The notes under the pieces: generated by a model
What the model was told of the DNA's origin: nothing
Databases searched by the model: none
Seen by the model: the letters and a program-made list of their open reading frames with translations, nothing else
Program-made: the position numbers and the translations under genes
From: a virus
Taxonomy: Duplodnaviria > Caudoviricetes
IMG/VR virus record: IMGVR_UViG_3300046678_000974
Span: 12,409 to 76,408 of that record
Reading direction: 5' to 3' (one strand)
DNA length: 64,000 nt
In this document: in pieces, positions 12,940-64,000 of the stretch
Layout of the letters: each line of letters starts with the position of its first letter
Position numbering within the stretch: the stretch's first letter is position 1

Positions 12940-13452
12940 TCAGACTACGGACCAATTTGTACCGTTGTAAATTAGATCGACACTCGAAAAGGCAAGATTG
13001 AGTACGATACCAGTGGCGCCCAACACGTTATCAATATTCTGCGTGGCTTTCACGGTGATCGCATTTGTCGCTGCATCACCTTTGCCGTCTTTCACAGTGA
13101 TAATTCTTCCAGTCGTGGGGGCGGCTGGCAGGGTTACTTGAGTGGCAGCACCACTCGTCTTATTAATGACCACATAGCGATCAGTTGCAGCGACGGTATA
13201 GTTGCCAGCGGCGATGATCACAGCAATCTTACGGACTTCGGCAGACGAAGTGGTGATAACACCACCAACGCTCAGCGTATTTGATAGAGTGATCGGACCA
13301 GTCAGCGTTTGCGCCGTGCTTTGATGGATCGACACTGCATCATCAAAGGCGTTGTTCAGTCCGAGAGGAACAGCGCCGCCAGTATTGGCGCCGCATTGAG
13401 TGCCGTCCACAAAGACGACAGAACCATTATAGGAATTGCTAAAAACCGACAT
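12940..13452 (-). CDS. Short tail-fibre module protein, paralog 1 of 3
   Basis: True start MSVFSNSY at 13452 (GAGGA RBS); TDRYVVINK...GRIITVKDGKGDAATNAITV...YNGTNW. Confidence 0.75.
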   Translation of the reverse strand: MSVFSNSYNGSVVFVDGTQCGANTGGAVPLGLNNAFDDAVSIHQSTAQTLTGPITLSNTLSVGGVITTSSAEVRKIAVIIAAGNYTVAATDRYVVINKTSGAATQVTLPAAPTTGRIITVKDGKGDAATNAITVKATQNIDNVLGATGIVLNLAFSSVDLIYNGTNWSVV

Positions 13453-13481: not shown

Positions 13482-16400
13482 CTAGCCCACTGAGGCTGTC
13501 CAACTCATGGTCATGCTGGTACTTGTGGTCGAACCAATCAATGGTGTCCCCGGTATCGTAGGCAATCCAACCGTAGGTACGGGTTGTGGTGCTGCGCCAA
13601 CTGCATTTAAGACAACCACACTCATTGCTGGAATAGTGATCCCTGCGAGCAAAGCCGACGTAGATAAGGTGGTGGTAAAGCCAGTCGGGTGCGTCGAAGA
13701 CAACTCCCAATATGTCCAAGCTGATGTCGATGAACCATTCATCGCCACCGAAACTGGATAAGCTGTAGAGACATCGTAATTGATGATCTGACAGCAGGTA
13801 CTGTTGGCGTTCACAGTCCCCAAGGTTACGATGTTCATCCCAGAAGAGGTTGTTGAACTGATAACATTTCCGGGTGCCAATGCTCCCAGTTTTTGATATA
13901 CATATCCCGGTGGACGTAGGAAATATGGTCCTTGTCCAAACGTATTTGAATCTATCAGCCCATACCATTGATCATAGGCGATATCCCAACGATTAGCCCA
14001 TGCCAAGGTTCCTACTTTGCCGATAGTGGCATATCGAAATGCTGCATATACAGCCCCGGTCACATCAGCCTGATATGAACTGGCACCGGGCTGTCCGTCC
14101 ATGTTGAACTCGGTGAGGAATATTGGTGCTGTTGAAGATATCGCTGTATTGACATTCTGACGAACATCTAAGAAGATATCAGTGAGTTCATCTGAGAAGC
14201 ATTGTGCAACTGACTTGCTACCATTCTCCTCGGTATATCCATGTCCACTGATGAAGTCAGGATGACAGTTTTGAATGAATGTCGTTAATCTTTGATTATT
14301 GAAATACGAATCATCCAAGCCACCGCATTGATATGAGGGATCAACGGCTTTTATTCCAACCGCCATGGCGTTAAAAAGGCCGATACACGAATTGATATCG
14401 GTACCATCGGCTTCGTTAGCAAATGTCCAATAATAAACTGGCACACCACCATTCTTGAAATGTTGTGCTATTTGCTGACAACGATCTTGATGAACTGCCC
14501 AGTCAGATGGTGAAGTGATGTTCAACCATGAACACCATCCCACTGTGATGATTAAGTTGGCGGTCGTTAACGTGGTGCCAATGGTAAAGCACTTCTGCGC
14601 ATTGTTGATAAAATTATCAATCCAACTCCAATCTGCTGCTGATGTGCGAGTGGGAAAAATCTGTGTGATGTGGAAGTTCTGATTCCAGTTAAGACGAATG
14701 GAACCAATGTTCATCGACTTGCAGATGGTTTGAAATGCCGGATCGACCATCAATCCATAATCACCACGTGTGATGTTCATATCATTACAGGCAACACCAT
14801 AAAACTTTGGCGATATTGCCACACCGGTTAGTGATGTCAAATTGAAGGTGACGTTCGGTCCTGTCGGTGGTTGAACTGGCGGTCCCGGAACCAATCCCAA
14901 GGGGCTGACTGTTGTACCACTGGAGGGCTGCCACGCATCACTTGATACTGTTTTGAAGTACCATAGTACACCTTGCGGCAGATTTGCCGGACCAGTGATT
15001 GGTCCTGAGAATGTTTGGGTCGATAGATTCCAAGTGAACCAATTCTGAGAAGGACCATCTTGGGCAAAGATTATGTTTTGATAGAGATCGATTGCACTGG
15101 TATTGCCGCCACCATTGATAATGTTCCCATCCATTCGGAAGTTCTCTTGGACATCGATGGTATAGGTATGACCTCCAAATACAATGCTACCATTATTCGG
15201 TGTCGCATAGGTAGAAGTACTCAAAATGGTCGCAGATGATTGCCGCCAAACTTGTCCATTCACATAGGCAAGCGATATTACAGTGTTACCAGCCGAAGCA
15301 TCGACTGCGCCGTTTACACTAACACGCGAATTGGCCAATGTCCAACTGGACAAATCAGAACCAATAATTGACGTTAGTGGTGGCACCGTTGAACCATTGG
15401 GCGATGCTGAAACGAATGGATTGGCAACAGATGCCCAAGGATCAGATACCAGCGTCTTGACAAACCAATTCCCTAATGAGTTCTCGATATAAACACGGCT
15501 ATTCAGATACACAACTTCGACAGCCGAAACATCTGGTACCCCATTGATCACAACACGATTGTTGCTCAATGTCCAAATGGTTAGATCGGAACTAATGATC
15601 TGAGTTGCCGGAGGAATGATAGTTTCATCGGCTGATGGTGTTAATGAAGGCGGTCCCGGTGGCCCACCCGGAGGTGGTACTGGTACTTGGCTGATGCTAT
15701 AGATTTGTGACAGATAGGCGGATTGTTCAGGATATAATGATCCACCACCCCATGCTGTAACTACGCCGAAGTCAGGTGATGAACCACGATGCGGTCCCCA
15801 ATAACACCATGCCCATGAGATTGGCTGTTGTCCAGTGAGGAACCGAGGGCCACCACTAGCTTGGCCATTGACGTACTGCACGAATGTATTGCCCCAATTG
15901 GTAGCATCAGTGGTCAACATAGCATCGCCGCAGGCCATAACCATTACCGGTGCGATGTTATTAGATACCATGAAGCCCCACATCGTATTGGCGCGATTGA
16001 TATAAACGGTACCAGCATCAATACCGGTACCAATCGGCGCAACCTCATTAGGGAATGACTGGACGCCATAGACAACTTTATTGGAGACAGTGAGGTTCAC
16101 CGGCGTGGTCGAGGCCAATCGCAAGTCGCCTTCAAAGGAACCGGTCGCCACATTGAGGGGTGCTTCGCAGATGATCAATGGGTTACTGTCGATTGCTTGG
16201 ATGGCATTGCCCACACTGACGTACATGGCGTGCAGATCGGTTGGGGTGTTATCACCCCATGTCGCACCGAGATTGACGCCTTGGGCAGATATGGGTGCCC
16301 AGCGTAGATCATAACCTAAGATTGCTGTGTTATTAGCATAGCGATTGGCTATCCGTGTCCAATGCTGCGCAAATATACTCGATGTGATTGTACCTGTGGT

Positions 16401-26371: not shown

Positions 26372-26767
26372 ATGGACCTGTCCCATCTTATCGGTACTGA
26401 CATCGCCATTACATCGTCCGTCAATGCCACTGCTGATCTGTTGAACATTGTCAATCCGATCGAAGGACAGCAACGCGTGCTTCGGCGTCTGTTGACCAAT
26501 CCCGGTGATTACGTTTGGCAACCCATCTATGGTGCAGGACTGGCACGATTCGTTGGTCAGCCAATCAACAATCTCACTCTCAGCGGTACAATTCGTCAGC
26601 AGATGAAGCTGGAACGAGCGGTTAAACAAGTGCCACCTCCCAATGTCACCCTCGCCAGTCAACCTACCGGTGTGGTGGTCGCAGGAGTTCAATATATCGA
26701 TGCTGATACCAATCTTACCTCGGCGTTGAGCATCCCGCTATCAGACTTGCCGCAGGCGGGAGCATAA
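26372..26767 (+). CDS. Baseplate wedge initiator (gpW/gp25-like)
   Basis: QRVLRRLLTNPGDYVWQPIYGAGLARFVG motif; directly upstream of J. Confidence 0.75.
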   Translation: MDLSHLIGTDIAITSSVNATADLLNIVNPIEGQQRVLRRLLTNPGDYVWQPIYGAGLARFVGQPINNLTLSGTIRQQMKLERAVKQVPPPNVTLASQPTGVVVAGVQYIDADTNLTSALSIPLSDLPQAGA

Positions 26768-26770
26768 ACC

Positions 26771-27946
26771 ATGACATTGTTTACCAAAAACTTTGATCAA
26801 ATGGTCGATGCACAACAAGCATCGCTCCAAGTCGCCAATCCATTGTTTACGTTCTCGGCTGGTTCCGACGTCCAAGCCTTCGCAGAAGCCAATGCTGGGA
26901 TCGCACTGTTCCTCCAATATTTGATCTTCAAGACCCTGACACAAACTCGACTGGCTACCAGCTTCGGTGCGGATGTCGATAGTTTCGGCGCTGATTTTTT
27001 ATTCGCGAGATACCCAGCGATCTCTGCTACCGGTCAAATCTTGATTACGCGGTTTACTGCTCCCAATGAAATCCGTATCCCGATCAATGCCGTGGTCAAG
27101 ACATCAGATAATGCCGTCAGTTTTGCCATCATCCCCGATAGTAACAACGCTACCTATAACGCAGGGTTTCAAAGTTATGTTATGAATCCGGGGGTGTTCC
27201 AAGTCTCGGCATTGGTCAAAGCTATAGTACCCGGTACTATAGGCAATGTCGCTGCCAATACAGTGACCAAGCTGTCAGCCTCCTTGGCGATCGGCTCATT
27301 GACCAATCTGGCACCCTTCGTTAATGGCGTCGATCAAGAATCGGATGCGGCATATAAGAATCGGTTTCAGTTTTATATCAATACTCGTTCGGCCAGCACC
27401 CGTCTTGCTATTGAGAACGCGATCATCAACACCCAGACCGGTTTGACTTATACCATCAATGAAAATGTTGATGCCGAGTTTAAGCCATTGCCGGGACAGG
27501 TCACCATCTATGTTGATGATGGTACCGGGTTTCCGCCTGACATACTGTTTGCTGGTACAGTGGCAACACCGGGGCTGTGGCAGAACATCAACAATGTAAG
27601 ACCCGCTGCGGTATCGTTCACTGTCGAACCAGCCCATCCGGTACCAGTGAATATCGAAGTCAGTACCATCTTCAATCCGGGATATAACAGAAACGATTTT
27701 GTTGGACTTATCGGTACTGCTATCGCCAACTACATCAATTCGCTTGCAGTAGGGCAGACCCTGTATATGACGCGCTTGTATCAGGTGATCTACGATAGTG
27801 TTCCGGGTGCTCTGGCTGATGCGCATGATCTATTGATCAATGGCGATTCAGTCGATGTCACTGTGACACCGGCGGAAGTCCTGCGGTTCATCAGCAATGC
27901 ACCGCCCGGATCAGATATCCCACCGAGCGAAATGACCATAGATTGA
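26771..27946 (+). CDS. Baseplate J-like protein
   Basis: ATGQILITRF...GTIGNVAANT...NGVDQESDAAYKNRF...VTIYVDDGTG...VRPAAV. Confidence 0.9.
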   Translation: MTLFTKNFDQMVDAQQASLQVANPLFTFSAGSDVQAFAEANAGIALFLQYLIFKTLTQTRLATSFGADVDSFGADFLFARYPAISATGQILITRFTAPNEIRIPINAVVKTSDNAVSFAIIPDSNNATYNAGFQSYVMNPGVFQVSALVKAIVPGTIGNVAANTVTKLSASLAIGSLTNLAPFVNGVDQESDAAYKNRFQFYINTRSASTRLAIENAIINTQTGLTYTINENVDAEFKPLPGQVTIYVDDGTGFPPDILFAGTVATPGLWQNINNVRPAAVSFTVEPAHPVPVNIEVSTIFNPGYNRNDFVGLIGTAIANYINSLAVGQTLYMTRLYQVIYDSVPGALADAHDLLINGDSVDVTVTPAEVLRFISNAPPGSDIPPSEMTID

Positions 27947-27953
27947 GGCAGTA

Positions 27954-30422
27954 TTGATGACCTTTCTGACACAGACTGATGTCGTTGAGCGCCTGTACAA
28001 TCTATTACCACGTGGCTGGTACCCCGACCTCCAAGATGCGCCCAATCTTCAAGCCGTCTTGTCGATGTTGGCCGCGACGTATAGCAATGACTTTGATGGT
28101 CTCTATCAACTTCTGCTCTACGTCCAGCAACAAGCACGGGTGTTCACCGCTACCGACTTCTGGCTCGATCTAGCAGCACAGGATTATTTCGGCAGTCGTC
28201 TACAGCGTCATGTGTCAGAATCAGATACCAGTTATCGTCGCAGAATCATCCTCAATCTCCTAGCACCACGTGGTACTCGGCCTGCTTTGGTTGCTAATGT
28301 AACTAACCTTACAGGTGTTACACCGAGAGTCATTGAACTTCGTAATCCGGGTGATTGCGGTTCCTATTCAAGCCTTGGCAATCCTGTCTGGGGTGGCGCT
28401 GCATATAATCAACAGGGTGCTTATGGCACGCTCACTATGCCGTTCCAACTGTTGATCAGTGTACAACGTCCACAAGGCGAAGGTATTCCGCTGATCAATG
28501 GCTATAGTATGCCGGGCAGTGGCTATGCCACCTATCCTAAGCCATTCGGTTTTACTGGTGGCAATCTACCCCCAGCAAATACTTGGGGTATCTCATCTTA
28601 TGAACAACTGATCGATATCATCGGCCAAGTTACCGATACCGATATCTATCAAATGGTATCGGATACCATGCCTGCTGGAACCATCGCTTGGACGGCGATT
28701 CATTCCGAGTTCGTTGAGTCACCACCCATCGGTGGTGGTGCTATGCTGGATGTTAATTTTTATCTGAATATGTCGGTGTTGTCAGCCAGTCGAGGCGTGC
28801 AAGGTGCACAAGCATTGGCGAATATGGCGTTTCCGATCCTGTTTCATGCCACCATGGTCGAGCAAGCCCACCTGCTCGGGCATTTTACGATGTCGCCTTT
28901 CCGTTTCTCGGCTGGTATGTCCTTGGTGTCGCCTTTGATGGTAACGATCAATATGATCATGCCGATCATCGTTTTCAAAGCAGCGATGCAATTCGAAGCG
29001 CTCTCTGCCAAGTTCACTATACCAGCTATCAGTATGACGCCAACCGTAATCTTTACTGGCCAAACACAGCCACTATTGCCTGCCAATTTGCCCTTCACCC
29101 TCGGCACGATCGTCGGTGCGCAGCCATTAATTGGTATCAACTTCATACTTGGCCAGTCTGCTCCAGGTGAAGCCGGAGGCATGCCGGCTATTGCAGTCAA
29201 TTCTGTCTGTCATGTGGGCGATTTTGCCGCTTCAGTGCCGCCTTCTCTTGCATCGGTCACTGCTGGTACAGTCGCCGGTCTCACAGAAGTTACCGGTGTC
29301 GGTCTGTCCAGCAGTTTCAATATCCCAGCAGTCAGCGGCACGACGATCGCCGCTCCGCTCGCACCACAACCGCAGCCAGTGCTGCCGGAAACACTGCCGT
29401 TCCTATTGGGTGGTGGCGTGCAGACCCAGCCACAAGTCACGTTGGCACTGCCGGATGTACAGAGCACAACCATTCTGGGCAGTCTTGCCGTGCCACCGAG
29501 ATTGGCTGCTGTCACAAGCCAAGCAACCCTTGGCACGCTTGGCGTCTCGACCAGCGCGTTCCAAACTTTCAATCCAACAAGGAAGACCAGCAATATCAGT
29601 CTTTCTCCCGATCTGCTTACCGCAACCAAGACGATTGGCACCAGTGCCGATCCGATCTTTGGGACCAAAACGGCTACGTCTGGATTGTACTATTGGGAAG
29701 TCACAGTCAGCATTACCAATGCCAGTCAGATCACCGCTGGTATCGCCAATATTACAGCACCATTCGCATCAGGTGATTTCATCGGCTTCGATGTCAACAG
29801 TATCGGTTGGGCAGCAAATGGCAATGTGTTGGAAAATAACATATCACAAGCATCATGGCCAACATGGACGTCAACCGGTGCACCAATCCAGCCTCAGACA
29901 TTGACTACCAGCGCACCCGGCGGCACACAGATGTCGCTGGCTTGGGGCGCCGCTGTCGATGTAATCACCATGTGCTTTGCCTTCGATGCCTATGATGGCT
30001 TGCTATATGGTCGTATAGGCGCCGGGCCTTGGAATGGTGGTGGCGCAACCACCTCCGCCGGACTAGTGACACTCGGTGTGACACCGCTTGGACAAGGCAC
30101 CTCTAGTGGATCGACTGCGATGACAATTCTTGGCCAGACGCCGCTTGGTAGCTCGATCGCAGGACAGTCCAGTGGTGCTGTTATCCCGCCGCCATCTGGG
30201 CCACCCAATGCGCCTCAAACACAAGTCGGTACCATCCTGTCCGGTTCGGTCGTGATCACATGGCAGTCTACACAAACCGGTTTGCTAATCCCATCCACTG
30301 TGTTCGACGGTGGGGCAATCGGTCCAGCGGTAACCCTGTTCTCGTCGGGCGATAAGGCAGTCATGGCAGTTGATAGTGCGCACTGGCAGTATCAGCCACC
30401 TGACGGATACACAGCATGGTAA
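27954..30422 (+). CDS. Baseplate wedge gpI-like protein fused to a linker and C-terminal SPRY/B30.2-like domain
   Basis: WLDLAAQDYFG...ESDTSYRRRI...RGTR at the N-terminus; GLYYWEVTV...FAFDA...YQPPDGYTAW SPRY-like C-terminus. Confidence 0.75.
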   Translation: MMTFLTQTDVVERLYNLLPRGWYPDLQDAPNLQAVLSMLAATYSNDFDGLYQLLLYVQQQARVFTATDFWLDLAAQDYFGSRLQRHVSESDTSYRRRIILNLLAPRGTRPALVANVTNLTGVTPRVIELRNPGDCGSYSSLGNPVWGGAAYNQQGAYGTLTMPFQLLISVQRPQGEGIPLINGYSMPGSGYATYPKPFGFTGGNLPPANTWGISSYEQLIDIIGQVTDTDIYQMVSDTMPAGTIAWTAIHSEFVESPPIGGGAMLDVNFYLNMSVLSASRGVQGAQALANMAFPILFHATMVEQAHLLGHFTMSPFRFSAGMSLVSPLMVTINMIMPIIVFKAAMQFEALSAKFTIPAISMTPTVIFTGQTQPLLPANLPFTLGTIVGAQPLIGINFILGQSAPGEAGGMPAIAVNSVCHVGDFAASVPPSLASVTAGTVAGLTEVTGVGLSSSFNIPAVSGTTIAAPLAPQPQPVLPETLPFLLGGGVQTQPQVTLALPDVQSTTILGSLAVPPRLAAVTSQATLGTLGVSTSAFQTFNPTRKTSNISLSPDLLTATKTIGTSADPIFGTKTATSGLYYWEVTVSITNASQITAGIANITAPFASGDFIGFDVNSIGWAANGNVLENNISQASWPTWTSTGAPIQPQTLTTSAPGGTQMSLAWGAAVDVITMCFAFDAYDGLLYGRIGAGPWNGGGATTSAGLVTLGVTPLGQGTSSGSTAMTILGQTPLGSSIAGQSSGAVIPPPSGPPNAPQTQVGTILSGSVVITWQSTQTGLLIPSTVFDGGAIGPAVTLFSSGDKAVMAVDSAHWQYQPPDGYTAW

Positions 30423-30437
30423 AGGCTTAAATAAGAC

Positions 30438-33398
30438 ATGGCCAAACCTAACTTTTTCGTAGGCGAGTTGCTCGCAGCCGATGAACTCAATGCAGCTTTT
30501 GCTGATTGCGTTTCCCTTAGCGCAACAGGTACCCAAACACTTGCTTCGATAATCAATCTACCACAACTCATTGCAACCATCAGCGTTCAAGCAGAACAGT
30601 TGGTGGTTACCGGTGATCTGGTGTGCACCTCTAGCTCAGCCGTAACCCTTCCTGTAGGCCCAACGATCGAACGGCCTAATCAGCCTGCGGGTGGAATGCT
30701 GCGTTGCAATTCCGATGCCGCTACCTTGGAAGCCTATCTTCCTTCGGGTAAATGGGTCACACTCGCAACCACCGATGCCGCTGTCACACCGGTCAATCCT
30801 CCACTCAGTATGGAAGCACCAACATTCGGTGTGGCTACCAGCAATGCAATCCCAATGGGTTGGTCGAATCCACACGGGGGCACTGCCCCATTCACCTTCA
30901 AGGTTGAGTTTCGTCCCACTGGATCAGCAATATTTGCCACTTGGACACAGCAAACTTCTGCCCTCGCTACGACAGTGTCAGGTCTGCTACCAGCAACTCG
31001 CTATGATTTTCAGGTCACCGCGTTCAATGCGGCTGGTTCGGCAATCTCCAATATAGTCTCCACTAATACAGTTGGCTTCCTCGATGGAGGGCCGGGTAAT
31101 CTTACCGCTTCCCAACCAACTAGCACGACAATGGCATTGACGTGGTTGCCAATCAGTGGTGCAGCCTACCAAGTTCAATACGCAGTACCAGGAGCAACCC
31201 TGTGGACTGATTTCGATGGGCCTGTTAGCGGTAATAATGTCACTGTCACAGGACTCATCGCCAATACCCAGTACCTGTTCCATGTCATAGCCAAGACATT
31301 ATCGAATAACGCTGAGTCATTGGTAGCACAAAATGCCACCCTTACAGCAGCCACCACAGCCCCCAATACGGCGACAGCTTTGGTGGCTAATGGCATTACT
31401 ACTTCAGGGTTTACCGTCTCGTGGCAGCCTCCTACGGCTGGCACACAGCCATTGTCCTATCGCCTGCAATATCAATTGGCAGGTACCTCAACATACACTG
31501 ATTATGGCCAAGCACAGACCCAGACCTCAGTATCTTTGATCAATCTCGATTCGTCATCCGGCTACAACGTCCGAGTGATCGCAACGAATTCGGCAGGGTC
31601 AAGCACCAGTGTGCCATTGACGATTACAACTCTTACCGCTGTGGCAAACCCCGGTGAGGTTAAGGGATCGCAGATGTCGAGCCCAACAGCACCAACGATC
31701 ATCGCTCCCTTCATCGCCAATGTTCCTCAAGCCTCAGCAATCGCCCTCACCGGTATTCAATTGATCGATCCGGCTGCCATCTATTCGCCCGGAACAATCG
31801 CAGTCACAGTATTGGCCAACACTGGCATGGTCACCATGACAGATGTGAGCGGAAATAATATCACCGGGTCTGGAACCAATGTCATCAACTACGCCTCAAC
31901 TTATCCCGCAGTACAAGCCGCATTGGCATCGTTGGTCTATACCGCGACTACCCTCGGGAGTGACAACGTTACCATCACAGTAGTTGATCAATTGATCAAA
32001 CAGACTGCATTATCGATTGCGATTACTGTCTCTGATGGTGTAGGAGTAACTCCATCACAGCCTCCACCGGGGGGTAATCCATCCTCAACGATTACTGCAA
32101 CTGGACAGCCTTCTGATTTCAATGGCACCTTAGCCAATCGCTCCAAAAGTTTCACTGATCGTCTGGGAATCAATGTGCGGTTGGAAGACCCCGGCTATAC
32201 ACGGAACTTCACTGGACTGCAAGCAGCAGTGTTGGAAAATCTGATCATGTATGTGGGTCAGAGCAATATCCCATATCTTCGGCATAACGCAGGTACTGCC
32301 CTCAATCCAGCGTTCATGAGTCAGATTGCCACCAATACCAATACCCATTTTATTCTCGCCATCGATCAAAAGGTCCAGCCACAATCCTATAGTGTGGTCA
32401 CTAATCTCATGGAACAGATGGCATTGTTCTATAATAATTCTGTTTCTGCTTTCGAAGGACCCTATGGTGCCGATCAGGCACCCACAGTGTTGGGTCCAGT
32501 TAACTTTTTGCCGTCAGCAGCACAGTTTCAGAACACCTTATACAGTGCCGCTCATGCAGTCGGTATACCAGCACGCCAGTTGACACCGATCGCACCCGGT
32601 AATAACAACCAGTTCGGTTCGCCTCCAGCCGATGTCGGTACCACTTCGTTGTTTCCGCCATTCAGTCCTAATGGTACCGGTAGTCCATTGTTCACTACCG
32701 ATTCCAATGGCTATCTGGCAAATGCTTTGAGTGGTGCACGTACCGCAACACCCAATCTACCAACCGCAATCGTCTCATTCGGCTGGCAATCATTCCCTAA
32801 TGGTACCACCAATACAGGTCTCGGGTTGGTTAATGAAACCACACAGGCCGTCTATATTTTGGAGACTTTGTTCTCGGCTTACAAACAGAACGTCACCAAT
32901 ATCATGATCAATGAACTGCTGGATGTGCAGGTCGGTCAATCAATCGATGATTTTGGTCAGTCCTTTGGTCTGTTCAACTCAGCAGGCACACAGAAAATCT
33001 CAGCCTTGGCCTTGCGTGCTATCATGTCCAAGCTGATCGATAATTCAATCTTCTCATTCAGCTTCGTACCAGGGCATCTGGATTATACCGTGACCGGTAA
33101 GCCCGGTCCCTATGGTGGCTTCGTGAATACAGGCTATCAAGATGTGGTGTTTCAACGTTCAGATGGTACCTACCTATTAATTATGTGGAATGAACAAGTT
33201 CTCAATACACGGGGTGGTAATAATGCTCCGCTCAATGTGCCGAGTGTGCCGATTATCTTGACGTTCAATGAGACCACCAAGAGCAATGTTCAAGTGTTTG
33301 ATCCGATCTTAGGACAGACTGTACAGCAACAGAGCACAGTGGGATCAATGAATATCAGTCTGCCGCCCTATCCTATCATTGTTCAGGTGACCTTCTGA
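30438..33398 (+). CDS. Tail fibre with three intact FN3 domains and a GH-A-like barrel lacking catalytic Glu
   Basis: Fibre-anchor start FFVGELLAADELN; three FN3 repeats; DRLGINV...AFEGPYGAD...AIVSFGW...FGLF. Confidence 0.75.
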   Translation: MAKPNFFVGELLAADELNAAFADCVSLSATGTQTLASIINLPQLIATISVQAEQLVVTGDLVCTSSSAVTLPVGPTIERPNQPAGGMLRCNSDAATLEAYLPSGKWVTLATTDAAVTPVNPPLSMEAPTFGVATSNAIPMGWSNPHGGTAPFTFKVEFRPTGSAIFATWTQQTSALATTVSGLLPATRYDFQVTAFNAAGSAISNIVSTNTVGFLDGGPGNLTASQPTSTTMALTWLPISGAAYQVQYAVPGATLWTDFDGPVSGNNVTVTGLIANTQYLFHVIAKTLSNNAESLVAQNATLTAATTAPNTATALVANGITTSGFTVSWQPPTAGTQPLSYRLQYQLAGTSTYTDYGQAQTQTSVSLINLDSSSGYNVRVIATNSAGSSTSVPLTITTLTAVANPGEVKGSQMSSPTAPTIIAPFIANVPQASAIALTGIQLIDPAAIYSPGTIAVTVLANTGMVTMTDVSGNNITGSGTNVINYASTYPAVQAALASLVYTATTLGSDNVTITVVDQLIKQTALSIAITVSDGVGVTPSQPPPGGNPSSTITATGQPSDFNGTLANRSKSFTDRLGINVRLEDPGYTRNFTGLQAAVLENLIMYVGQSNIPYLRHNAGTALNPAFMSQIATNTNTHFILAIDQKVQPQSYSVVTNLMEQMALFYNNSVSAFEGPYGADQAPTVLGPVNFLPSAAQFQNTLYSAAHAVGIPARQLTPIAPGNNNQFGSPPADVGTTSLFPPFSPNGTGSPLFTTDSNGYLANALSGARTATPNLPTAIVSFGWQSFPNGTTNTGLGLVNETTQAVYILETLFSAYKQNVTNIMINELLDVQVGQSIDDFGQSFGLFNSAGTQKISALALRAIMSKLIDNSIFSFSFVPGHLDYTVTGKPGPYGGFVNTGYQDVVFQRSDGTYLLIMWNEQVLNTRGGNNAPLNVPSVPIILTFNETTKSNVQVFDPILGQTVQQQSTVGSMNISLPPYPIIVQVTF

Positions 33399-33871
33399 TG
33401 CCATTCACCAATTATGCTGATGGAACCGTGATCTTTGCCGCGCAATTGAATGCCGACAATGCCACATCACTCGATCTCAACACAGCAACTACACAAACCC
33501 TTCAAGGCGGTCTCACCCTGTCTGGGCTATTGACCACACAGGCAGTGACCACCAATGGTGTGCTCACTCTCAAGGGTGGTACCATCAATAACGTTAAGCT
33601 GATCACCACCGGTGCCAGTTATACCATGCTGCCCACCGATCGATACATCTTTTGTCAGACCAGTGCCGCTATTACGATCGCCTTGATATCAAGCCCAACA
33701 CAGGGACGTACGATTACAGTTAAAGACTCGGGTGGTACGGCAGGGACTGGGAATATTACCATTTTGCCAGCGGCTGGCTTCATCGATGGTATAACCAGTT
33801 ATGTTATCTCTGCCAACTATGGTACCGCAACTTTCATATATTCAGGGTCGAGATGGTTAAGCGGCGCCTGA
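33398..33871 (+). CDS. Short tail-fibre module protein, paralog 2 of 3
   Basis: TDRYIFC...GRTITVKDSGGTAGTGNITI...IDG...YSGSRW. Confidence 0.75.
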   Translation: MPFTNYADGTVIFAAQLNADNATSLDLNTATTQTLQGGLTLSGLLTTQAVTTNGVLTLKGGTINNVKLITTGASYTMLPTDRYIFCQTSAAITIALISSPTQGRTITVKDSGGTAGTGNITILPAAGFIDGITSYVISANYGTATFIYSGSRWLSGA

Positions 33872-60408: not shown

Positions 60409-60921
60409 GTGATGGGTGTTGTTGCCAATTCTGCATATCAAGAGGGATTAGCCCTCAAGGCCAATTCGGCGGATGTGATTGCCAGTTCCAATCCGATTGG
60501 GTTGAATGATCTGGTCGCTGATGCATTTTCGTTATCTGGTGTGCCTGTTGGTGGCAGTGGTTCGCCCGCCAGTCAGACGGTGGCTGGTCCTGTAGTGTTT
60601 TCTGGTGCGGTGACCTTCAGCGCTGGTCTATTGGGTCATGTGGTGGTTCTGAGCGTAGCTGGGCCGTATACGGTGGCAGCGACGGATCGTTATGTGTTGG
60701 TCAACTTTGCTGGTGCGATGATCGTCAACTTGCCGGCGGCGCCGGTGATTGGTCGTTTGGTGACTGTGAAGGACATATCTGGTTTAGCAGCAACCAATGT
60801 GATCACCGTGAAGGGGACGCAGAACATTGATGGTATTACTGGATCGACCGGTGTGGTGGTCAATACGGCGTATGGATCGGTTGATGTGGTGTATAATGGA
60901 ACCACCTGGAGCATCTTGTAA
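60409..60921 (+). CDS. Short tail-fibre module protein, paralog 3 of 3
   Basis: TDRYVLV...GRLVTVKDISGLAATNVITVKGTQNIDG...YNGTTW. Confidence 0.75.
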   Translation: MMGVVANSAYQEGLALKANSADVIASSNPIGLNDLVADAFSLSGVPVGGSGSPASQTVAGPVVFSGAVTFSAGLLGHVVVLSVAGPYTVAATDRYVLVNFAGAMIVNLPAAPVIGRLVTVKDISGLAATNVITVKGTQNIDGITGSTGVVVNTAYGSVDVVYNGTTWSIL

Positions 60922-61019
60922 TGGCAAAACGACCAAAACCTCGACCGGTTCCGGCAAAACCGACCATTACATCGGTCAAGCCAACGAGTAATGAATCGGT
61001 TTCATTGATCTGGAGATGA
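60921..61019 (+). CDS. 32-aa mini-ORF encoding FN3 strands A-B
   Basis: TAATG-coupled; MAKRPKPRPVPAKPTITSVKPTSNESVSLIWR; stop AGA-TGA-C lies 1 nt before the next ATG. Confidence 0.5.
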   Translation: MAKRPKPRPVPAKPTITSVKPTSNESVSLIWR

Positions 61020-61020
61020 C

Positions 61021-63267
61021 ATGCCGTTAACCTATCAACCTGCATTTCGTGTACATGGCACGACGACATGGATCAATTTTGGTCAACCGGTGACGAGCAC
61101 GAGTGTATTGATCACTGGATTGTCGCCATCAACGCAGTATGATTTTCAGATTACTTCGATCAATGCGTTTGGTTCGACGCCGAGTACACCGATTTCCGCG
61201 ACCACACCGGCGGTTACGACGATCAACAGTATTGGTCTAGCGCCGCAGACATTTTCTGCTGGTTCAGCGATTGGTACCACGGTTGGTACTGTGACGGTTA
61301 CCATGTCATCGGGCAATTTTACTGGTGCATTGACAGTGACTGGTACCGATGCTGGATCATTTACCAGTCCTATTGTTGGCAATCTGTTGAAGTTGGCAGT
61401 TGGTAATACGACTGTGAAGACCTATAGCATCAACATTGTTGCCACACAAAGTGGGGTGACCACATTTACCCAGCCCTTCAGCATTACTGCTACATCAGCA
61501 GTTACTGAGGCATCGGAAGGTGCGTTGATTACGACTATTGGTCCGGTGATGAATGCTTCACTTACCAAATACGTGGCTCAGTCTTCACCCCCATGGAATG
61601 TGTTTGCGCTGATTAATACTGGTACCGGTCGTGATCCGCAGATCAGTTTGGACACGGGGAGTGGTCCCCAGGTATTGCCACAGAGTGGTTTGGTTGCCAA
61701 ACTGGCATATCACAATCACGTTGAATGGCAGTTCAATGGCACGAATTGGTATTGGTGGGATACGGCGTCGAGTGCCACACCGGACAAGTTCACATTGTGG
61801 ACGATTAACAGTGTCAATTTGTCAGGTAATGGCACTTATACGCCTAATTTGGCGGCGAATCAGCCAGTTAGTACTGTCTCTGTTGTGCAGTCTGATGGTC
61901 AGACATTTCAGGGGACCTATTCGGTTGTCTCGACACCGAGTGGTGCCTTCAAGATGGTTGGTGCGGTATTGACGTCGAATGTGGTTTTGAGTGCATCAAG
62001 TTATAGTGTGACTGTGACAGCGACGCCGAATGTAGTTGTTGAAGGTGCATTATCGACTACAGTCAATTTGACGAATGGTACTGTTTCTAATGTCCAAGTA
62101 CCTCTCGGCATCCATCTTGGGAATGGATTGTTCTCATCTGCTGCACCTTATGGCAGCACGAATCTGCATTGGAATGGTGTGATTAGCGCTATGGGGCGTA
62201 CTCCGGCAGTTTTAGGAGCTACGGGGGCTAATACGTTTGGTGGTTTTGCTGGTGGATCACCCCCGCCTAATTGGGGAGCAGGTGATTTAGGTAGTTGGCA
62301 AGGTGCGAGTATTCCGACCAATGGTAGTGTGACTCCTCTGCTTACTTGGTCGTTTACTGATGGAACGACTGATCAGGCATTTTCTGCTTATGCGGCAATA
62401 GGCACGGCGAGTGAACCATCATATGGTGGGCAGAAACTATCTTTCTGGATTCAGAATAGTCTCACGCAATGGAAAAATGCTGGTTTCACCAAAGTTTATA
62501 TCCGCGTGAACTGGGAGTTTCAATCTAGTACATCTACTGGTGGTCCTATTGGAGGATTTGGGGTTGGTAGCACAGGAAACTTGCCAATTTGGCGCAATGC
62601 TTGGCGGGGTTTCTGTAATGCAGCCCATGGTGTCTCTGGACTTACTGTAAAGATGGTTTGGTGTCCAGCAACGGCGAATGATACTGGTGATCCAGCCGTT
62701 CCTCCTTTTGGAGCGATATTGAATTATTTTCCTGCTGTGAATAGTGGGTCTGGTTTTACTGGTGCAGCCGCTGATGGCTTTGCTCCGGCTGCTGTTGGTG
62801 GTAAGTTTGTTGATGTTATAGGACCTGATTTGTATGCCTTTGGTGGCGGTGGATTATCGTATCCGGATGAAGTTGATCCCACGAGTTTGACGACTACGAC
62901 TGCATGGTTTTTTGATTCTTGTGTGAAGATTGCCCAATCACAGGGATTGACTTTTGGCATATCTGAGTTTGGGGATTTTTCAGGCCAAACTGAGGCTACT
63001 GCTAGGGCTTGGGACCCGACCTATAGTCAAGGAGGGCGCACTGGTGGTTGGACTCCCAATCATTTTTTCAACTATATGAACAATCTTAAAAATCTCAGTC
63101 CTGCGGTGCCTATTGAGTTCATATGCATCTATGACGTCAATGTCGCCCCATTACTAATTCCATTCAGCAACATGTCACAGACCAACAGTGATTTGATGGG
63201 TTATCGGAAAATCCTTGGCCTAGGAGGCACTGCTCCGACTCCGATAATGACAATTGCTGTGCCATAA
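61021..63267 (+). CDS. Fibre protein: FN3 C-G fragment + cadherin/Ig-like domains + GH26-like glycosidase
   Basis: MPLTYQPAFRVHG...YDFQITSIN; KVYIRVNWEF, VDVIGPDLY and FGISEFG GH26-like motifs with both Glu present. Confidence 0.75.
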   Translation: MPLTYQPAFRVHGTTTWINFGQPVTSTSVLITGLSPSTQYDFQITSINAFGSTPSTPISATTPAVTTINSIGLAPQTFSAGSAIGTTVGTVTVTMSSGNFTGALTVTGTDAGSFTSPIVGNLLKLAVGNTTVKTYSINIVATQSGVTTFTQPFSITATSAVTEASEGALITTIGPVMNASLTKYVAQSSPPWNVFALINTGTGRDPQISLDTGSGPQVLPQSGLVAKLAYHNHVEWQFNGTNWYWWDTASSATPDKFTLWTINSVNLSGNGTYTPNLAANQPVSTVSVVQSDGQTFQGTYSVVSTPSGAFKMVGAVLTSNVVLSASSYSVTVTATPNVVVEGALSTTVNLTNGTVSNVQVPLGIHLGNGLFSSAAPYGSTNLHWNGVISAMGRTPAVLGATGANTFGGFAGGSPPPNWGAGDLGSWQGASIPTNGSVTPLLTWSFTDGTTDQAFSAYAAIGTASEPSYGGQKLSFWIQNSLTQWKNAGFTKVYIRVNWEFQSSTSTGGPIGGFGVGSTGNLPIWRNAWRGFCNAAHGVSGLTVKMVWCPATANDTGDPAVPPFGAILNYFPAVNSGSGFTGAAADGFAPAAVGGKFVDVIGPDLYAFGGGGLSYPDEVDPTSLTTTTAWFFDSCVKIAQSQGLTFGISEFGDFSGQTEATARAWDPTYSQGGRTGGWTPNHFFNYMNNLKNLSPAVPIEFICIYDVNVAPLLIPFSNMSQTNSDLMGYRKILGLGGTAPTPIMTIAVP

Positions 63268-63275
63268 ATATCGTT

Positions 63276-64000
63276 ATGACCATTTCCTACAATGTTTTGT
63301 ATCGTGTGCATGGCACCACTACTTGGACAACGTTTGGTAATACCGCTTTAACAACGGTTACAGTTACTGGTCTTAATCCAAATACTTCGTATGATTTTGA
63401 AGTACAAGCGGTCAATGAGGTTGGTACGGCTACCTCCAACATTGTGCAGGGCAGTACCTTGGGTGGTGTGACGTTCACTAGCATCACGCTATCGTCTCAG
63501 ACATTCACTGCTGGATCGAATGTTGGCACGCCGGTTGGCACAATCTCTGTTGGGCTATCATCAGGTACTTTCAATGGTGCATTCCAACCGATCACTGGGC
63601 CGGATGCAGCGTTCTTCCAAATTGTCTCTGGGGTGTTACAATTAGCGGTCAATAATACAACGGCTCGCTCGTATAACATTTCTATTACGGTCAATCAGAG
63701 CGGTGTGACCAATACGCCTTTCACACAAGCATTCCCGAATATTGTCGCCAGTGTGGGTTCGCTTGAAGCTAGCGAAGGTGCTCTGATTCAGACTATTGGT
63801 CCTACGATGAATGCTTCGCGTACCAAATACGTGGCTCAGTCAACTGGGCCGTGGAATGTGTTTGCGCTGATTAATACTGGTACCGGTCGTGATCCGCAGA
63901 TCAGTTTGGACACGGGGAGTGGTCCCCAGGTATTGCCACAGAGTGGTTTGGTTGCCAAACTGGCATATCACAATCACGTTGAATGGCAGTTCAATGGCAC
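63276..64000 (+). CDS. Paralogous fibre protein (FN3 C-G fragment + Ig-like domain), 3'-truncated
   Basis: Open to the window end: MTISYNVLYRVHGTTTWTTFG...YDFEVQAVNEVG...; absent from the ORF track because it has no stop. Confidence 0.8.
   Translation, partial: MTISYNVLYRVHGTTTWTTFGNTALTTVTVTGLNPNTSYDFEVQAVNEVGTATSNIVQGSTLGGVTFTSITLSSQTFTAGSNVGTPVGTISVGLSSGTFNGAFQPITGPDAAFFQIVSGVLQLAVNNTTARSYNISITVNQSGVTNTPFTQAFPNIVASVGSLEASEGALIQTIGPTMNASRTKYVAQSTGPWNVFALINTGTGRDPQISLDTGSGPQVLPQSGLVAKLAYHNHVEWQFNG
63852..64000 (+). repeat. At least 149-bp perfect direct repeat of 61594-61742
   Basis: Identical sequence tggaatgtgtttgcg...ttcaatggcac. Confidence 0.95.

What the first reader, a model, noticed from the sequence alone, without database searches (positions are those of the whole stretch)
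29880..30266. Two FN3 A-B strand pieces inserted in-frame into loops of the baseplate SPRY domain
Seen: the SPRY-like sequence WTS-TG/DVI is interrupted by APIQPQTLTTSAPGGTQMSLAWGAAV, which matches intact FN3 #2 of the neighbouring fibre (PGNLTASQPTSTTMALTW) at 9 of 18 positions. A second insert after GPWNGG ends in PPNAPQTQVGTILSGSVVITWQ. Neither is followed by strands C-G. Inference: these are docking hairpins displayed from the gpI-type wedge protein, the usual fibre attachment point. Random decay would be unlikely to leave two precise A-B units in surface loops.
Basis: partly seen in the sequence, partly recalled or inferred. Interest (0 to 1): 0.8.

Follow-up and report, generated by a model that had tools for sequence, protein, structure and literature searches.

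The report
FN3 half-domain hairpins in baseplate SPRY loops
A phage baseplate protein carries two short inserts that look like the first two strands of a fibronectin-type (FN3) domain, while two enzyme-bearing fibre proteins of the same phage start with only the other five strands, so the pieces probably clip together as plug-and-socket joints, which has not been measured.

Summary
The 822-aa protein after the Baseplate_J gene (27954-30422) ends in a true SPRY domain: the core has pLDDT above 90 and every top PDB fold match is SPRY/B30.2.

About 70 aligned homologues lack three segments:
- ins1: aa 643-669.
- ins2a: aa 698-739.
- ins2b: aa 746-771.

ins1 and ins2b resemble FN3 strands A-B in the correct register. 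They rank just below the genome's intact FN3 starts and above 20 whole-genome shuffles. Pfam fn3 does not detect them, and support for ins2b is weak.

The same kind of roughly 26-aa piece sits at five different loop or terminal positions in related metagenomic SPRY proteins.

Two paralogous fibre proteins (61021-63267; 63276 onward) begin exactly at FN3 strand C. So do their orthologues at 43-47% identity, which have no A-B piece next to them.

Co-folding the SPRY domain with one C-G piece gave weak support: ipSAE 0.45, best control 0.00.

The best reading is that these are split FN3 domains completed between proteins, as solved once for Tuc2009 BppU-BppA. Here the hairpins sit in internal SPRY loops. 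Binding is untested.

This scan has noted split-FN3 joints on other phage DNA, and this system on this genome. It is a new variant of a known kind.

The parts
27954..30422 (+). 822-aa baseplate protein (P0001). It follows the Baseplate_J-like wedge gene, has a conserved N-terminal ~250-aa baseplate module, and ends in a SPRY domain.
   Evidence: The syntenic relative P0004 follows a PF04865 Baseplate_J gene.
29553..30419 (+). SPRY/B30.2-fold domain (aa ~534-822).
   Evidence: 103 homologues. AF2 core pLDDT above 90. Foldseek PDB and viral hits are all SPRY/B30.2.
29880..29960 (+). ins1, aa 643-669. A 27-aa FN3 strand A-B-like hairpin, inserted just before the conserved strand that starts DVITMCFAFD.
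   Evidence: Absent from 70 of 71 homologues. 9/18 identity to fibre FN3 #2. PSSM 12.9 bits. hhalign P=9e-4 at template columns 1-26. Kept in P0004 with the hallmark P..P..L...T..L.W residues.
30045..30170 (+). ins2a, aa 698-739. A 42-aa insert made of two ~19-aa repeats of the TLG..PLG type.
   Evidence: Shared only with P0004. 57-nt direct repeat D2. No FN3 signal beyond control level.
30189..30266 (+). ins2b, aa 746-771. A 26-aa FN3 strand A-B-like piece, inserted between the conserved NP-like motif and the T.TG motif.
   Evidence: Unique to this protein. FN3 HMM positions 2-29. PSSM 14.8 bits, above all 20 genome shuffles. hhalign only P=0.08.
30801..31637 (+). Three intact FN3 domains of the neighbouring 986-aa fibre (gene 30438-33398).
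   Evidence: Pfam fn3 E 9e-29, three stretches.
61021..61218 (+). Orphan FN3 strands C-G at the N-terminus of the 748-aa fibre/glycosidase-like protein P0106 (gene 61021-63267).
   Evidence: FN3 HMM positions 29/32-92. Pfam fn3 47-83 and FN3_DSCAM 26-79. Aligns to residues 44-100 of the 100-aa FN3con, PDB 4u3h.
63276..63473 (+). Orphan FN3 strands C-G at the N-terminus of the paralogue P0107. The gene starts at 63276, runs off the window, and ends at genome position 1541 (712 aa).
   Evidence: No A-B-like sequence in any upstream frame.
60921..61019 (+). 32-aa mini-ORF encoding only an FN3 A-B piece. Its start overlaps the stop of the upstream gene (TAATG). Its stop lies 1 nt before the P0106 ATG, in another frame.
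13485..13574 (-). FN3 A-B piece forming the extreme C-terminus (ends ...SMTMSWTASVG) of the 1620-aa GH5/GH39-like protein (gene 13482-18344).
   Evidence: PSSM 32.3 bits, the best non-intact window in the genome. Pfam Cellulase and GH39 hits.

Best explanation
The SPRY domain at the C-terminus of the wedge-position baseplate protein has acquired three loop insertions. Two of them (ins1, ins2b) are FN3 half-domains: the A-B beta-hairpin without strands C-G.

The complementary half, strands C-G without A-B, forms the N-terminus of two paralogous fibre/glycosidase-like proteins of the same phage.

The most likely working:
- A five-strand C-G piece cannot close its sandwich alone.
- It takes an A-B hairpin from another polypeptide, and the FN3 domain rebuilt between the two chains is the joint.
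- The baseplate SPRY domain would then be a two-socket docking platform that fastens accessory enzyme-bearing fibres to the baseplate rim.

What is shown: the inserts, their absence from homologues, the orphan halves and their conservation.

What is inferred: that the halves complement in trans, and that these particular hairpins pair with these particular fibres.
For: 1. The inserts are additions to a normal SPRY fold. 70 of 71 aligned homologues run straight through all three sites. The core folds at pLDDT above 90, while the inserts stay at 50-62 with no secondary structure, as expected for pieces that need a partner. The alignment has only one other row at the inserts, so this point is weak.

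2. Both pieces align to the very start of FN3, model positions 2-26 and 2-29. Genome-wide they rank directly under the intact FN3 starts and the 1620-aa C-terminal piece, and above 20 of 20 whole-genome shuffles.

3. The phenomenon recurs.
- P0004 (46% identical) keeps ins1 in a more canonical form, has another A-B piece one loop earlier, and lacks ins2b.
- P0010, P0016 and P0036 carry A-B pieces at two other SPRY loops and at the C-terminus. P0009 and P0011 carry only the terminal one.

4. The partner halves exist and are conserved.
- P0106 and P0107 start at strand C.
- Orthologues P0110, P0111 and the 502-aa protein of L012 (43-47% identity where measured) start at the same residue, with no A-B beside them.
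- In the P0009 family the C-G piece is as conserved as the SPRY core (60% against 55-62%). The terminal A-B is at 45% and the linker at 22%.

5. In L011/L012, A-B ends and C-G starts alternate along consecutive baseplate and fibre genes.

6. There is a solved precedent. In Tuc2009 a 25-residue BppU hairpin completes a sheet of the 57-residue BppA domain 2, giving a titin-like composite domain (PMC4742702). The sizes here are 26-27 and about 62-66 residues.

7. The E217 triplex subunit gp45 carries the fibre attachment loop (PMC10329688). This suggests that the gene after Baseplate_J is a fibre anchor.

8. Co-folding A1 (SPRY domain) with A2 (P0107 residues 1-70) gave weak support.
- ipSAE was 0.45, 0.06 and 0.82 in three runs, median 0.45. 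The best of three controls was 0.00.
- That mark was reached by 58 of 80 solved complexes and 2 of 110 mismatched pairs.
- At 0.60 or under it was reached by only 7 of those 80 solved complexes and by both mismatches.
- Run agreement was at least 0% of contacts. Partner pLDDT was at least 75.
- My own alignments were used, so these counts hold only roughly.
- A like joint has been solved, so the pass may partly come from memory.
Against: - Pfam fn3 gives no hit on either insert, even at E<=10.
- An HMMER model of A-B pieces did not report them at all.
- hhalign supports ins1 only moderately (P=9e-4, probability 23%). It does not separate ins2b (P=0.08) from the non-FN3 control ins2a (P=0.089).
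- The co-fold pass is weak, and one of the three runs scored 0.06.
- The genome has four A-B pieces but only two C-G pieces.
- P0106 has its own A-B mini-ORF immediately upstream, so the baseplate hairpins are not needed to account for it.
- The donor and acceptor genes lie about 31 kb apart, unlike the adjacent-gene pattern in L011/L012.
- No C-G-first gene was found in the 44 kb seen of the contig of the closest relative, P0004. That contig lacks the portal region where these genes lie here, so the absence is inconclusive.
- Loop A-B pieces are less conserved (29-38%) than the terminal ones.
Confidence: 0.5

Rival explanations
1. The inserts derive from FN3 but act within the protein. ins1, ins2a and ins2b together total 95 residues, about one Ig-sized domain. 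They pack into an accessory beta-module or a variable binding surface on one pole of the SPRY domain, for example for host-glycan contact. They do not receive another protein.
For: - P0001 and P0004 each keep two A-B pieces plus ins2a, although one of the A-B pieces sits in a different loop. This suggests the set matters rather than the position.
- ins1 ends directly at the start of a beta-hairpin whose other end leads to ins2 after about 9 residues. The inserts therefore probably emerge near each other. This is an inference from the strand order.
- SPRY loops are the usual ligand-binding surface in SPSB and TRIM proteins (the fold hits; established knowledge).
Against: - AF2 gave no secondary structure and no packing for the inserts. 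The alignment there is only two rows deep.
- This reading does not explain why orphan C-G pieces are conserved at fibre N-termini.
- It does not explain why the same A-B piece also occurs as a free C-terminal tail.
Confidence: 0.22
2. The hairpins do complete FN3 halves in trans, but not those of P0106 and P0107. Possible partners are a neighbouring wedge copy, the adjacent 986-aa fibre, or a protein not recognised here. The two C-G-first fibres would take their A-B from the mini-ORF peptide and the C-terminus of the 1620-aa protein.
For: - The mini-ORF lies directly before P0106 with coupled stop and start.
- The C-terminal piece of the 1620-aa protein is by far the most canonical orphan A-B, at 32.3 bits.
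- Four donors for two acceptors leaves two donors unaccounted for.
Against: - Two dedicated profile scans of all six frames found no further C-G piece in the 76-kb genome.
- The co-fold of the SPRY domain with P0107's N-terminus passed weakly, while all three controls scored 0.00.
Confidence: 0.15
3. The FN3 likeness is chance or compositional. These would be ordinary T/S/G/P-rich loop extensions ending in a Trp, with no FN3 ancestry and no docking role.
For: - No Pfam fn3 hit.
- The A-B HMM found nothing.
- ins2b is no better than the ins2a control in hhalign.
- The PSSM margins over the shuffles are small: 12.9 and 14.8 bits against a shuffle maximum of 12.3.
Against: - Both pieces align in the exact start-of-domain register.
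- The orthologous insert in P0004 is more canonical.
- Clear-cut A-B pieces (PNPPTAV..SIALSWTAS type) occupy other loops of the same domain family, and some are detected there by the fibre-FN3 HMM at E 2e-4 to 1e-2.
- The two pieces have nearly the same length, 26-27 aa.
Confidence: 0.1

Closest known systems
Lactococcus phage Tuc2009 baseplate tripod: BppU C-terminal beta-hairpin with BppA domain 2 (Legrand et al. 2016, PMC4742702; PDB 5E7T as named in an earlier scan note)
   Same: A ~25-residue hairpin from one baseplate protein completes a sheet of a ~57-residue partial sandwich of an accessory carbohydrate-binding protein. The composite is a titin/Ig-FN3-like domain. The piece sizes match those here: 26-27 aa and about 62-66 aa.
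   Different: In Tuc2009 the hairpin is a C-terminal extension and the acceptor is a C-terminal domain, in a siphophage of a Gram-positive host. Here the hairpins sit in internal loops of a SPRY domain, two per chain, in a contractile-tail baseplate protein. The acceptors are N-terminal. No structure or binding data exist here.
Donor-strand complementation in chaperone-usher pili (Pap/Fim; my own knowledge, not checked here)
   Same: An incomplete Ig-like fold is completed by a strand from another polypeptide, and this makes the joint.
   Different: Pili lack one strand (G) and use a chaperone and strand exchange. Here two strands (A-B) are missing and no chaperone is identified. A capping role for the 32-aa mini-ORF peptide is speculation.
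Fibre attachment on the triplex subunit after Baseplate_J (E217 gp45, P2 gpI, Mu gp48 class)
   Same: The gene order gp25-like, Baseplate_J-like, then this protein, then the fibre. E217 gp45 holds a flexible fibre attachment loop (PMC10329688).
   Different: No sequence-family hit to Tail_P2_I or to a solved triplex subunit. This protein has a ~570-aa extension with a SPRY domain that the short Ralstonia-phage homologues (~235 aa) lack.
SPRY/B30.2 domains in phage tail proteins (e.g. Burkholderia phage AH2 tail fibre, Ralstonia phage RSL2 B30.2/SPRY proteins; BFVD models)
   Same: Same fold, also in tail proteins. About 100 sequence homologues exist, mostly ~200-aa single-domain proteins.
   Different: Those aligned here have none of the three inserts.
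Ig-like/FN3 domains appended to phage structural proteins (Fraser et al. 2006; my own knowledge, not checked here)
   Same: FN3 modules decorate virion proteins. The neighbouring fibre has three intact copies.
   Different: Those are whole domains in cis. Here only halves are present.

Membership tests
SPRY / B30.2 domain (PF00622) | Sequence match to the Pfam SPRY model above its gathering score | tested here: not met
   13.7 bits against a cut-off of 26.3. Only profile positions 2-57 match, and the match stops at insert 1. The homologue P0005 passes at 29.2 bits.
SPRY / B30.2 domain (PF00622) | Bent beta-sandwich fold superposable on solved SPRY domains | tested here: met
   AF2 core pLDDT above 90. 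The top 50 Foldseek PDB hits are all SPRY/B30.2, with E down to 8e-10 and target TM 0.6-0.82.
Fibronectin type III (PF00041), as a fragment | Match to the curated Pfam fn3 profile | tested here: not met
   No hit on either insert or on the 293-aa domain at E<=10.
Fibronectin type III (PF00041), as a fragment | Alignment in register to strands A-B, with the N-terminal Pro and the strand-B Trp | tested here: inconclusive
   The fibre-FN3 HMM aligns positions 2-26 and 2-29 with E(Z=1) 0.06 and 0.18. PSSM scores are 12.9 and 14.8 bits against a shuffle maximum of 12.3. hhalign gives P 9e-4 for ins1 and 0.08 for ins2b.
Fibronectin type III (PF00041), as a fragment | Strands C-G following in the same chain (a whole domain) | tested here: not met
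   The SPRY core resumes directly after both pieces. This is what makes them halves.
Split Ig/FN3 joint of the Tuc2009 BppU-BppA type | Donor: a free ~25-aa beta-hairpin on a baseplate protein | tested here: inconclusive
   The length (26-27 aa) and the sequence pattern fit. AF2 did not predict a hairpin; pLDDT there is 50-62.
Split Ig/FN3 joint of the Tuc2009 BppU-BppA type | Acceptor: a partial sandwich lacking exactly those strands, on another virion protein | tested here: met
   P0106 and P0107 start at FN3 model positions 29-33. P0106 residues 5-62 align to residues 44-100 of FN3con. The same start is conserved in orthologues.
Split Ig/FN3 joint of the Tuc2009 BppU-BppA type | Physical completion of the fold between the two chains | not testable with these tools
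   Only a weak co-fold pass: ipSAE median 0.45, best control 0.00, no contacts reported.
gpI / gp7-class baseplate wedge (triplex) subunit | Position directly after the Baseplate_J-like gene and before the fibre | tested here: met
gpI / gp7-class baseplate wedge (triplex) subunit | Sequence-family membership (Tail_P2_I or a solved triplex subunit) | tested here: not met
   No Pfam or NCBIfam hit. No PDB sequence hit below E 0.24. There are only weak PHROG baseplate hits (E 1e-6 to 2e-3) and a precomputed PF27728 label.

The most novel reading that the evidence does not exclude
The ~26-aa FN3 A-B hairpin behaves as a portable docking cassette. It has been inserted repeatedly into at least five different loop or terminal positions of phage baseplate SPRY proteins. 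The number and position of the cassettes then set how many C-G-first enzyme fibres a virion carries, and which ones. The 32-aa mini-ORF peptide acts as a temporary cap on P0106 that is displaced on assembly, a strand-exchange step like that of pili.
Probability: 0.15. Interest if true: 0.85.

Novelty: new variant of a known kind. Interest (0 to 1): 0.62.

Why it matters
If the halves do complement, phages of this group fasten accessory glycosidase fibres to the baseplate by rebuilding a small domain between two chains. A baseplate protein can then gain or lose docking sites simply by gaining or losing a 26-aa loop insert.

That would give a readable sequence rule: count the A-B and C-G halves to predict which tail proteins attach to which in uncultured phages. 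It would also give a natural two-piece tag system displayed from loops rather than from chain ends.

It would extend the single solved case (Tuc2009) to contractile-tailed phages and to internal loop display.

Tried and rejected
- Single-sequence AF2 of aa 530-822 failed, with mean pLDDT 30. It was replaced by the alignment-based model.
- Pfam fn3 on the isolated inserts gave nothing.
- An HMMER model of 16 A-B pieces did not report the inserts. An ungapped W-anchored PSSM was used instead.
- The word-indexed protein search found only the protein itself. The full HMMER scan was needed.
- Scans of viral contigs with P0001 and P0106 found no relatives.
- tblastn of P0036 and P0106 against cultured-phage records found nothing.
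- P0001 matched cultured phages only through its N-terminal 270 aa: Ralstonia phages Hyacinthe, Raharianne and Albius, and Komagataeibacter phages phiKX1 and phiKX2.
- The genome search on the relative's record was not possible.
- The contig of the relative P0004 was walked over positions 4713-48903 and showed no C-G-first gene. This is inconclusive.
- A programmed +1 frameshift, or a sequencing error, joining the mini-ORF to P0106 was considered. It is judged unlikely as the general explanation, because orthologues start at strand C with no upstream A-B. It was not tested with reads.
- Short direct repeats at the insert borders (D1, 13 of 17 nt) look like chance.
- Literature searches for a split FN3 or strand-complementation joint in phage tails found nothing beyond Tuc2009.
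Full report
**What is at the coordinates**

The finding lies in ORF 27954-30422 (+), which encodes 822 aa. The gene follows a gp25-like gene (26372-26767, phrog_975) and a Baseplate_J-like wedge gene (26771-27946, phrog_6 at E 5e-39). It precedes a 986-aa fibre with three intact Pfam fn3 domains.

The first ~250 aa match phrog_26379 and ~235-aa proteins of Ralstonia phages. The wedge ('gpI-type') assignment rests on this gene order and on weak PHROG baseplate hits. No Pfam, NCBIfam or PDB sequence match supports it.

The genome is one 76,408-nt contig with a 127-nt terminal overlap, which indicates a circular assembly. The window covers positions 12409-76408.

**The SPRY domain and its insertions**

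- Pfam SPRY gives only a sub-threshold half match that stops where the first insert starts.
- A full HMMER scan of 1.84 billion representatives found 103 homologues. Most are ~200-aa single-domain proteins.
- In nearly all of them, the query segments 5-112, 143-172 and 246-293 lie next to each other.
- In a 72-row alignment, the stretches aa 643-669 (ins1), 698-739 (ins2a) and 746-771 (ins2b) are empty in every row except P0004. P0004 has ins1 and ins2a but not ins2b.
- With this alignment AF2 folds the core at pLDDT above 90 and leaves the inserts at 50-62 without secondary structure.
- Foldseek returns only SPRY/B30.2 domains from the PDB: SPSB2 at E 8e-10, then Ash2L, TRIM9/67 and DDX1.
- From viral models it returns SPRY proteins and tail fibres of phages.

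**Are the pieces FN3 A-B?**

For:
- The 9-of-18 identity to fibre FN3 #2 is real, and 10 of 2000 shuffles reach it.
- An HMM of the three fibre FN3 copies aligns ins1 to model positions 2-26 and ins2b to 2-29, with nothing after.
- A W-anchored PSSM was built from 16 A-B pieces: three from the fibre and thirteen from homologues. It was run over all 67,490 windows of the six-frame genome. After the intact FN3 starts, the top scores were the C-terminus of the 1620-aa protein (32.3 bits), a window at fibre aa 424 (15.2), ins2b (14.8) and ins1 (12.9). Twenty whole-genome shuffles gave maxima of 7.9-12.3.

Against:
- Pfam fn3 sees nothing in the inserts.
- An HMMER A-B model misses them.
- hhalign gives P=9e-4 for ins1 but only 0.08 for ins2b, the same as the ins2a control.

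Taken alone, the case is moderate for ins1 and weak for ins2b.

**Comparative evidence**

This is what lifts the case.
- P0004 is 46% identical over the full length and syntenic. It keeps ins1 in a more canonical form (…PSAPSLSLGSVANTSVALNWTPA…). It carries a further canonical piece (…PSVTTPVISSSTYDTITVSWPAS…) one loop earlier. It lacks ins2b.
- A second family comprises P0009, P0010, P0011, P0016 and P0036, of 457-504 aa. Each starts with FN3 strands C-G only and ends with an A-B piece (…TLTITWTAS-stop). In three of the five members there are two more A-B pieces in two further SPRY loops.
- A-B pieces therefore occupy at least five different positions in this domain family.
- Conservation in that family is 60% for the C-G piece, 55-62% for the SPRY core, 45% for the terminal A-B, 29-38% for the loop A-B pieces and 22% for the linker.

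**The other halves in this genome**

Profile scans of all frames find exactly two orphan C-G pieces.
- One is at the N-terminus of P0106 (61021-63267, 748 aa).
- The other is at the N-terminus of its paralogue P0107, which starts at 63276, wraps the contig end, and is 712 aa.
- P0106 residues 5-62 align to residues 44-100 of the 100-residue consensus FN3 of PDB 4u3h.
- The orthologues P0110 and P0111 (47% and 43% identity) and the 502-aa protein of L012 start at the same point (M-x-[ILV]-[STL]-Y…YRV…). None has an A-B piece upstream. P0111 has only 39 nt of upstream spacer.

The strand-C start is therefore old and maintained, not a recent break.

Besides ins1 and ins2b, there are two more orphan A-B pieces.
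- A 32-aa mini-ORF (60921-61019) whose stop lies one base before the P0106 start, in another frame.
- The last ~30 residues of the 1620-aa GH5/GH39-like protein.

**Gene-order pattern in relatives**

L011/L012 is a tail module with E217- and Pam3-type Pfam labels. Its gene order is as follows:
1. The sheath-initiator gene ends with an A-B piece plus a 22-aa tail.
2. The next gene is P0036, with the layout C-G … A-B.
3. The gene after that overlaps by ATGA. It starts with strand C alone, holds a SPRY domain, and ends with strands E-G.
4. An 82-aa protein ends in A-B.
5. A C-G-first fibre follows.

P0069 repeats the 'C … SPRY … E-G' layout. FN3 pieces at chain ends and in SPRY loops are thus a systematic feature of this phage group.

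**Mechanism**

A C-G piece lacks strand B, the centre of one sheet of the sandwich. By general knowledge of the fold it should therefore need A-B from elsewhere.

One solved example exists in phages. In Tuc2009, a 25-residue C-terminal hairpin of BppU 'completes one of the beta-sheets' of the 57-residue BppA domain 2, and the composite superposes on a titin domain (PMC4742702). I was led to that paper by earlier notes of this scan and read the passage myself.

In E217, the triplex subunit gp45 carries the fibre attachment loop (PMC10329688).

Co-folding the SPRY domain (alignment A1) with P0107 residues 1-70 (alignment A2) gave weak support.
- ipSAE was 0.45, 0.06 and 0.82 in three runs, median 0.45. 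The best of three controls was 0.00.
- The mark was reached by 58 of 80 solved complexes and 2 of 110 mismatches.
- At 0.60 or under it was reached by only 7 of the 80 and by both mismatches.
- Run agreement was at least 0% of contacts, and partner pLDDT was at least 75.
- No contacts were reported. My own alignments were used, so the counts hold only roughly.
- The pass may partly reflect memory of solved split or whole FN3 folds.

**Weighing**

I put 0.5 on the reading that ins1 and ins2b are trans-completed FN3 halves that dock the C-G-first fibres. The rivals are:
- Intramolecular use of the three inserts (0.22). This is suggested by P0001 and P0004 both keeping two A-B pieces plus ins2a, though in different loops.
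- Trans-completion with other partners (0.15). This is suggested by four donors for two acceptors and by the mini-ORF sitting beside P0106.
- Chance likeness (0.10).

**Novelty**

Split Ig/FN3 joints in phage baseplates are known from one structure.

New here:
- display of the hairpins from internal loops of a SPRY domain, two per chain;
- presence and absence of such cassettes at different loops among relatives;
- the setting in a contractile-tail baseplate of a phage that encodes several large glycosidase-like proteins.

I rate it a new variant of a known kind, untested at the bench.

Noticed in passing
window 60921-61019 (+): A 32-aa ORF (MAKRPKPRPVPAKPTITSVKPTSNESVSLIWR) encodes only an FN3 A-B piece. 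Its ATG overlaps the stop of the upstream gene (TAATG). Its TGA lies 1 nt before the ATG of P0106, which is in the +1 frame. A GGAG motif precedes both starts. It could be a free capping peptide, a frameshift partner or a remnant.
   Followed up: partly
window 13485-13574 (-): The 1620-aa GH5/GH39-like protein ends in the most canonical orphan A-B piece of the genome (…PTIPGTPLIGSTTSTSMTMSWTASVG-stop; PSSM 32.3 bits).
   Followed up: partly
window 12940-13452 (-), 33398-33871 (+), 60409-60921 (+): There are three small proteins of 157-170 aa. The two 170-aa copies are 43% identical to each other. The copies at 33398-33871 and 60409-60921 have a C-terminal domain that hits phrog_972 (T4 proximal tail-fibre subunit, N-terminal part). 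Each of the three lies directly beside a gene that ends or starts with an FN3 piece or carries FN3 domains. They may be adaptors.
   Followed up: partly
window 29100-29540 and 30045-30170 (+): Short 'hydrophobic-LG…P(L)G' motifs (PFTLGTIVGAQPLIG, PFLLGGGVQTQP, TILGSLAVPP, LVTLGVTPLGQG, MTILGQTPLGSS) recur through aa ~380-530 and again as the two repeats of ins2a. Their structure is unknown.
   Followed up: no
genome ends (window 63872-63998 = genome 1-127): The first and last 127 nt of the 76,408-nt contig are identical, which indicates a circular assembly. P0107 runs across this junction and ends at genome position 1541 (712 aa).
   Followed up: yes
L011:11497-12276, L012:8386-9168; protein P0069: These genes start with FN3 strand C alone (MSGTTYQVQYRP…), then hold a SPRY domain, and end with FN3 strands E-G. 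It looks as if the SPRY domain were nested inside an FN3 whose A-B strands sit on the preceding protein.
   Followed up: partly
window 29880-29960, 30045-30266: The inserts have G+C of 0.60-0.63, against 0.53 for the gene and 0.49 for the window. This may only reflect their Gly/Ala/Pro/Thr content.
   Followed up: no
window 31707-31781 (+), fibre aa 424-448: The window APFIANVPQASAIALTGIQLIDPAA scores 15.2 bits with the A-B PSSM although it has no Trp. It may be the start of a fourth, diverged Ig-like domain after the three FN3 copies.
   Followed up: no
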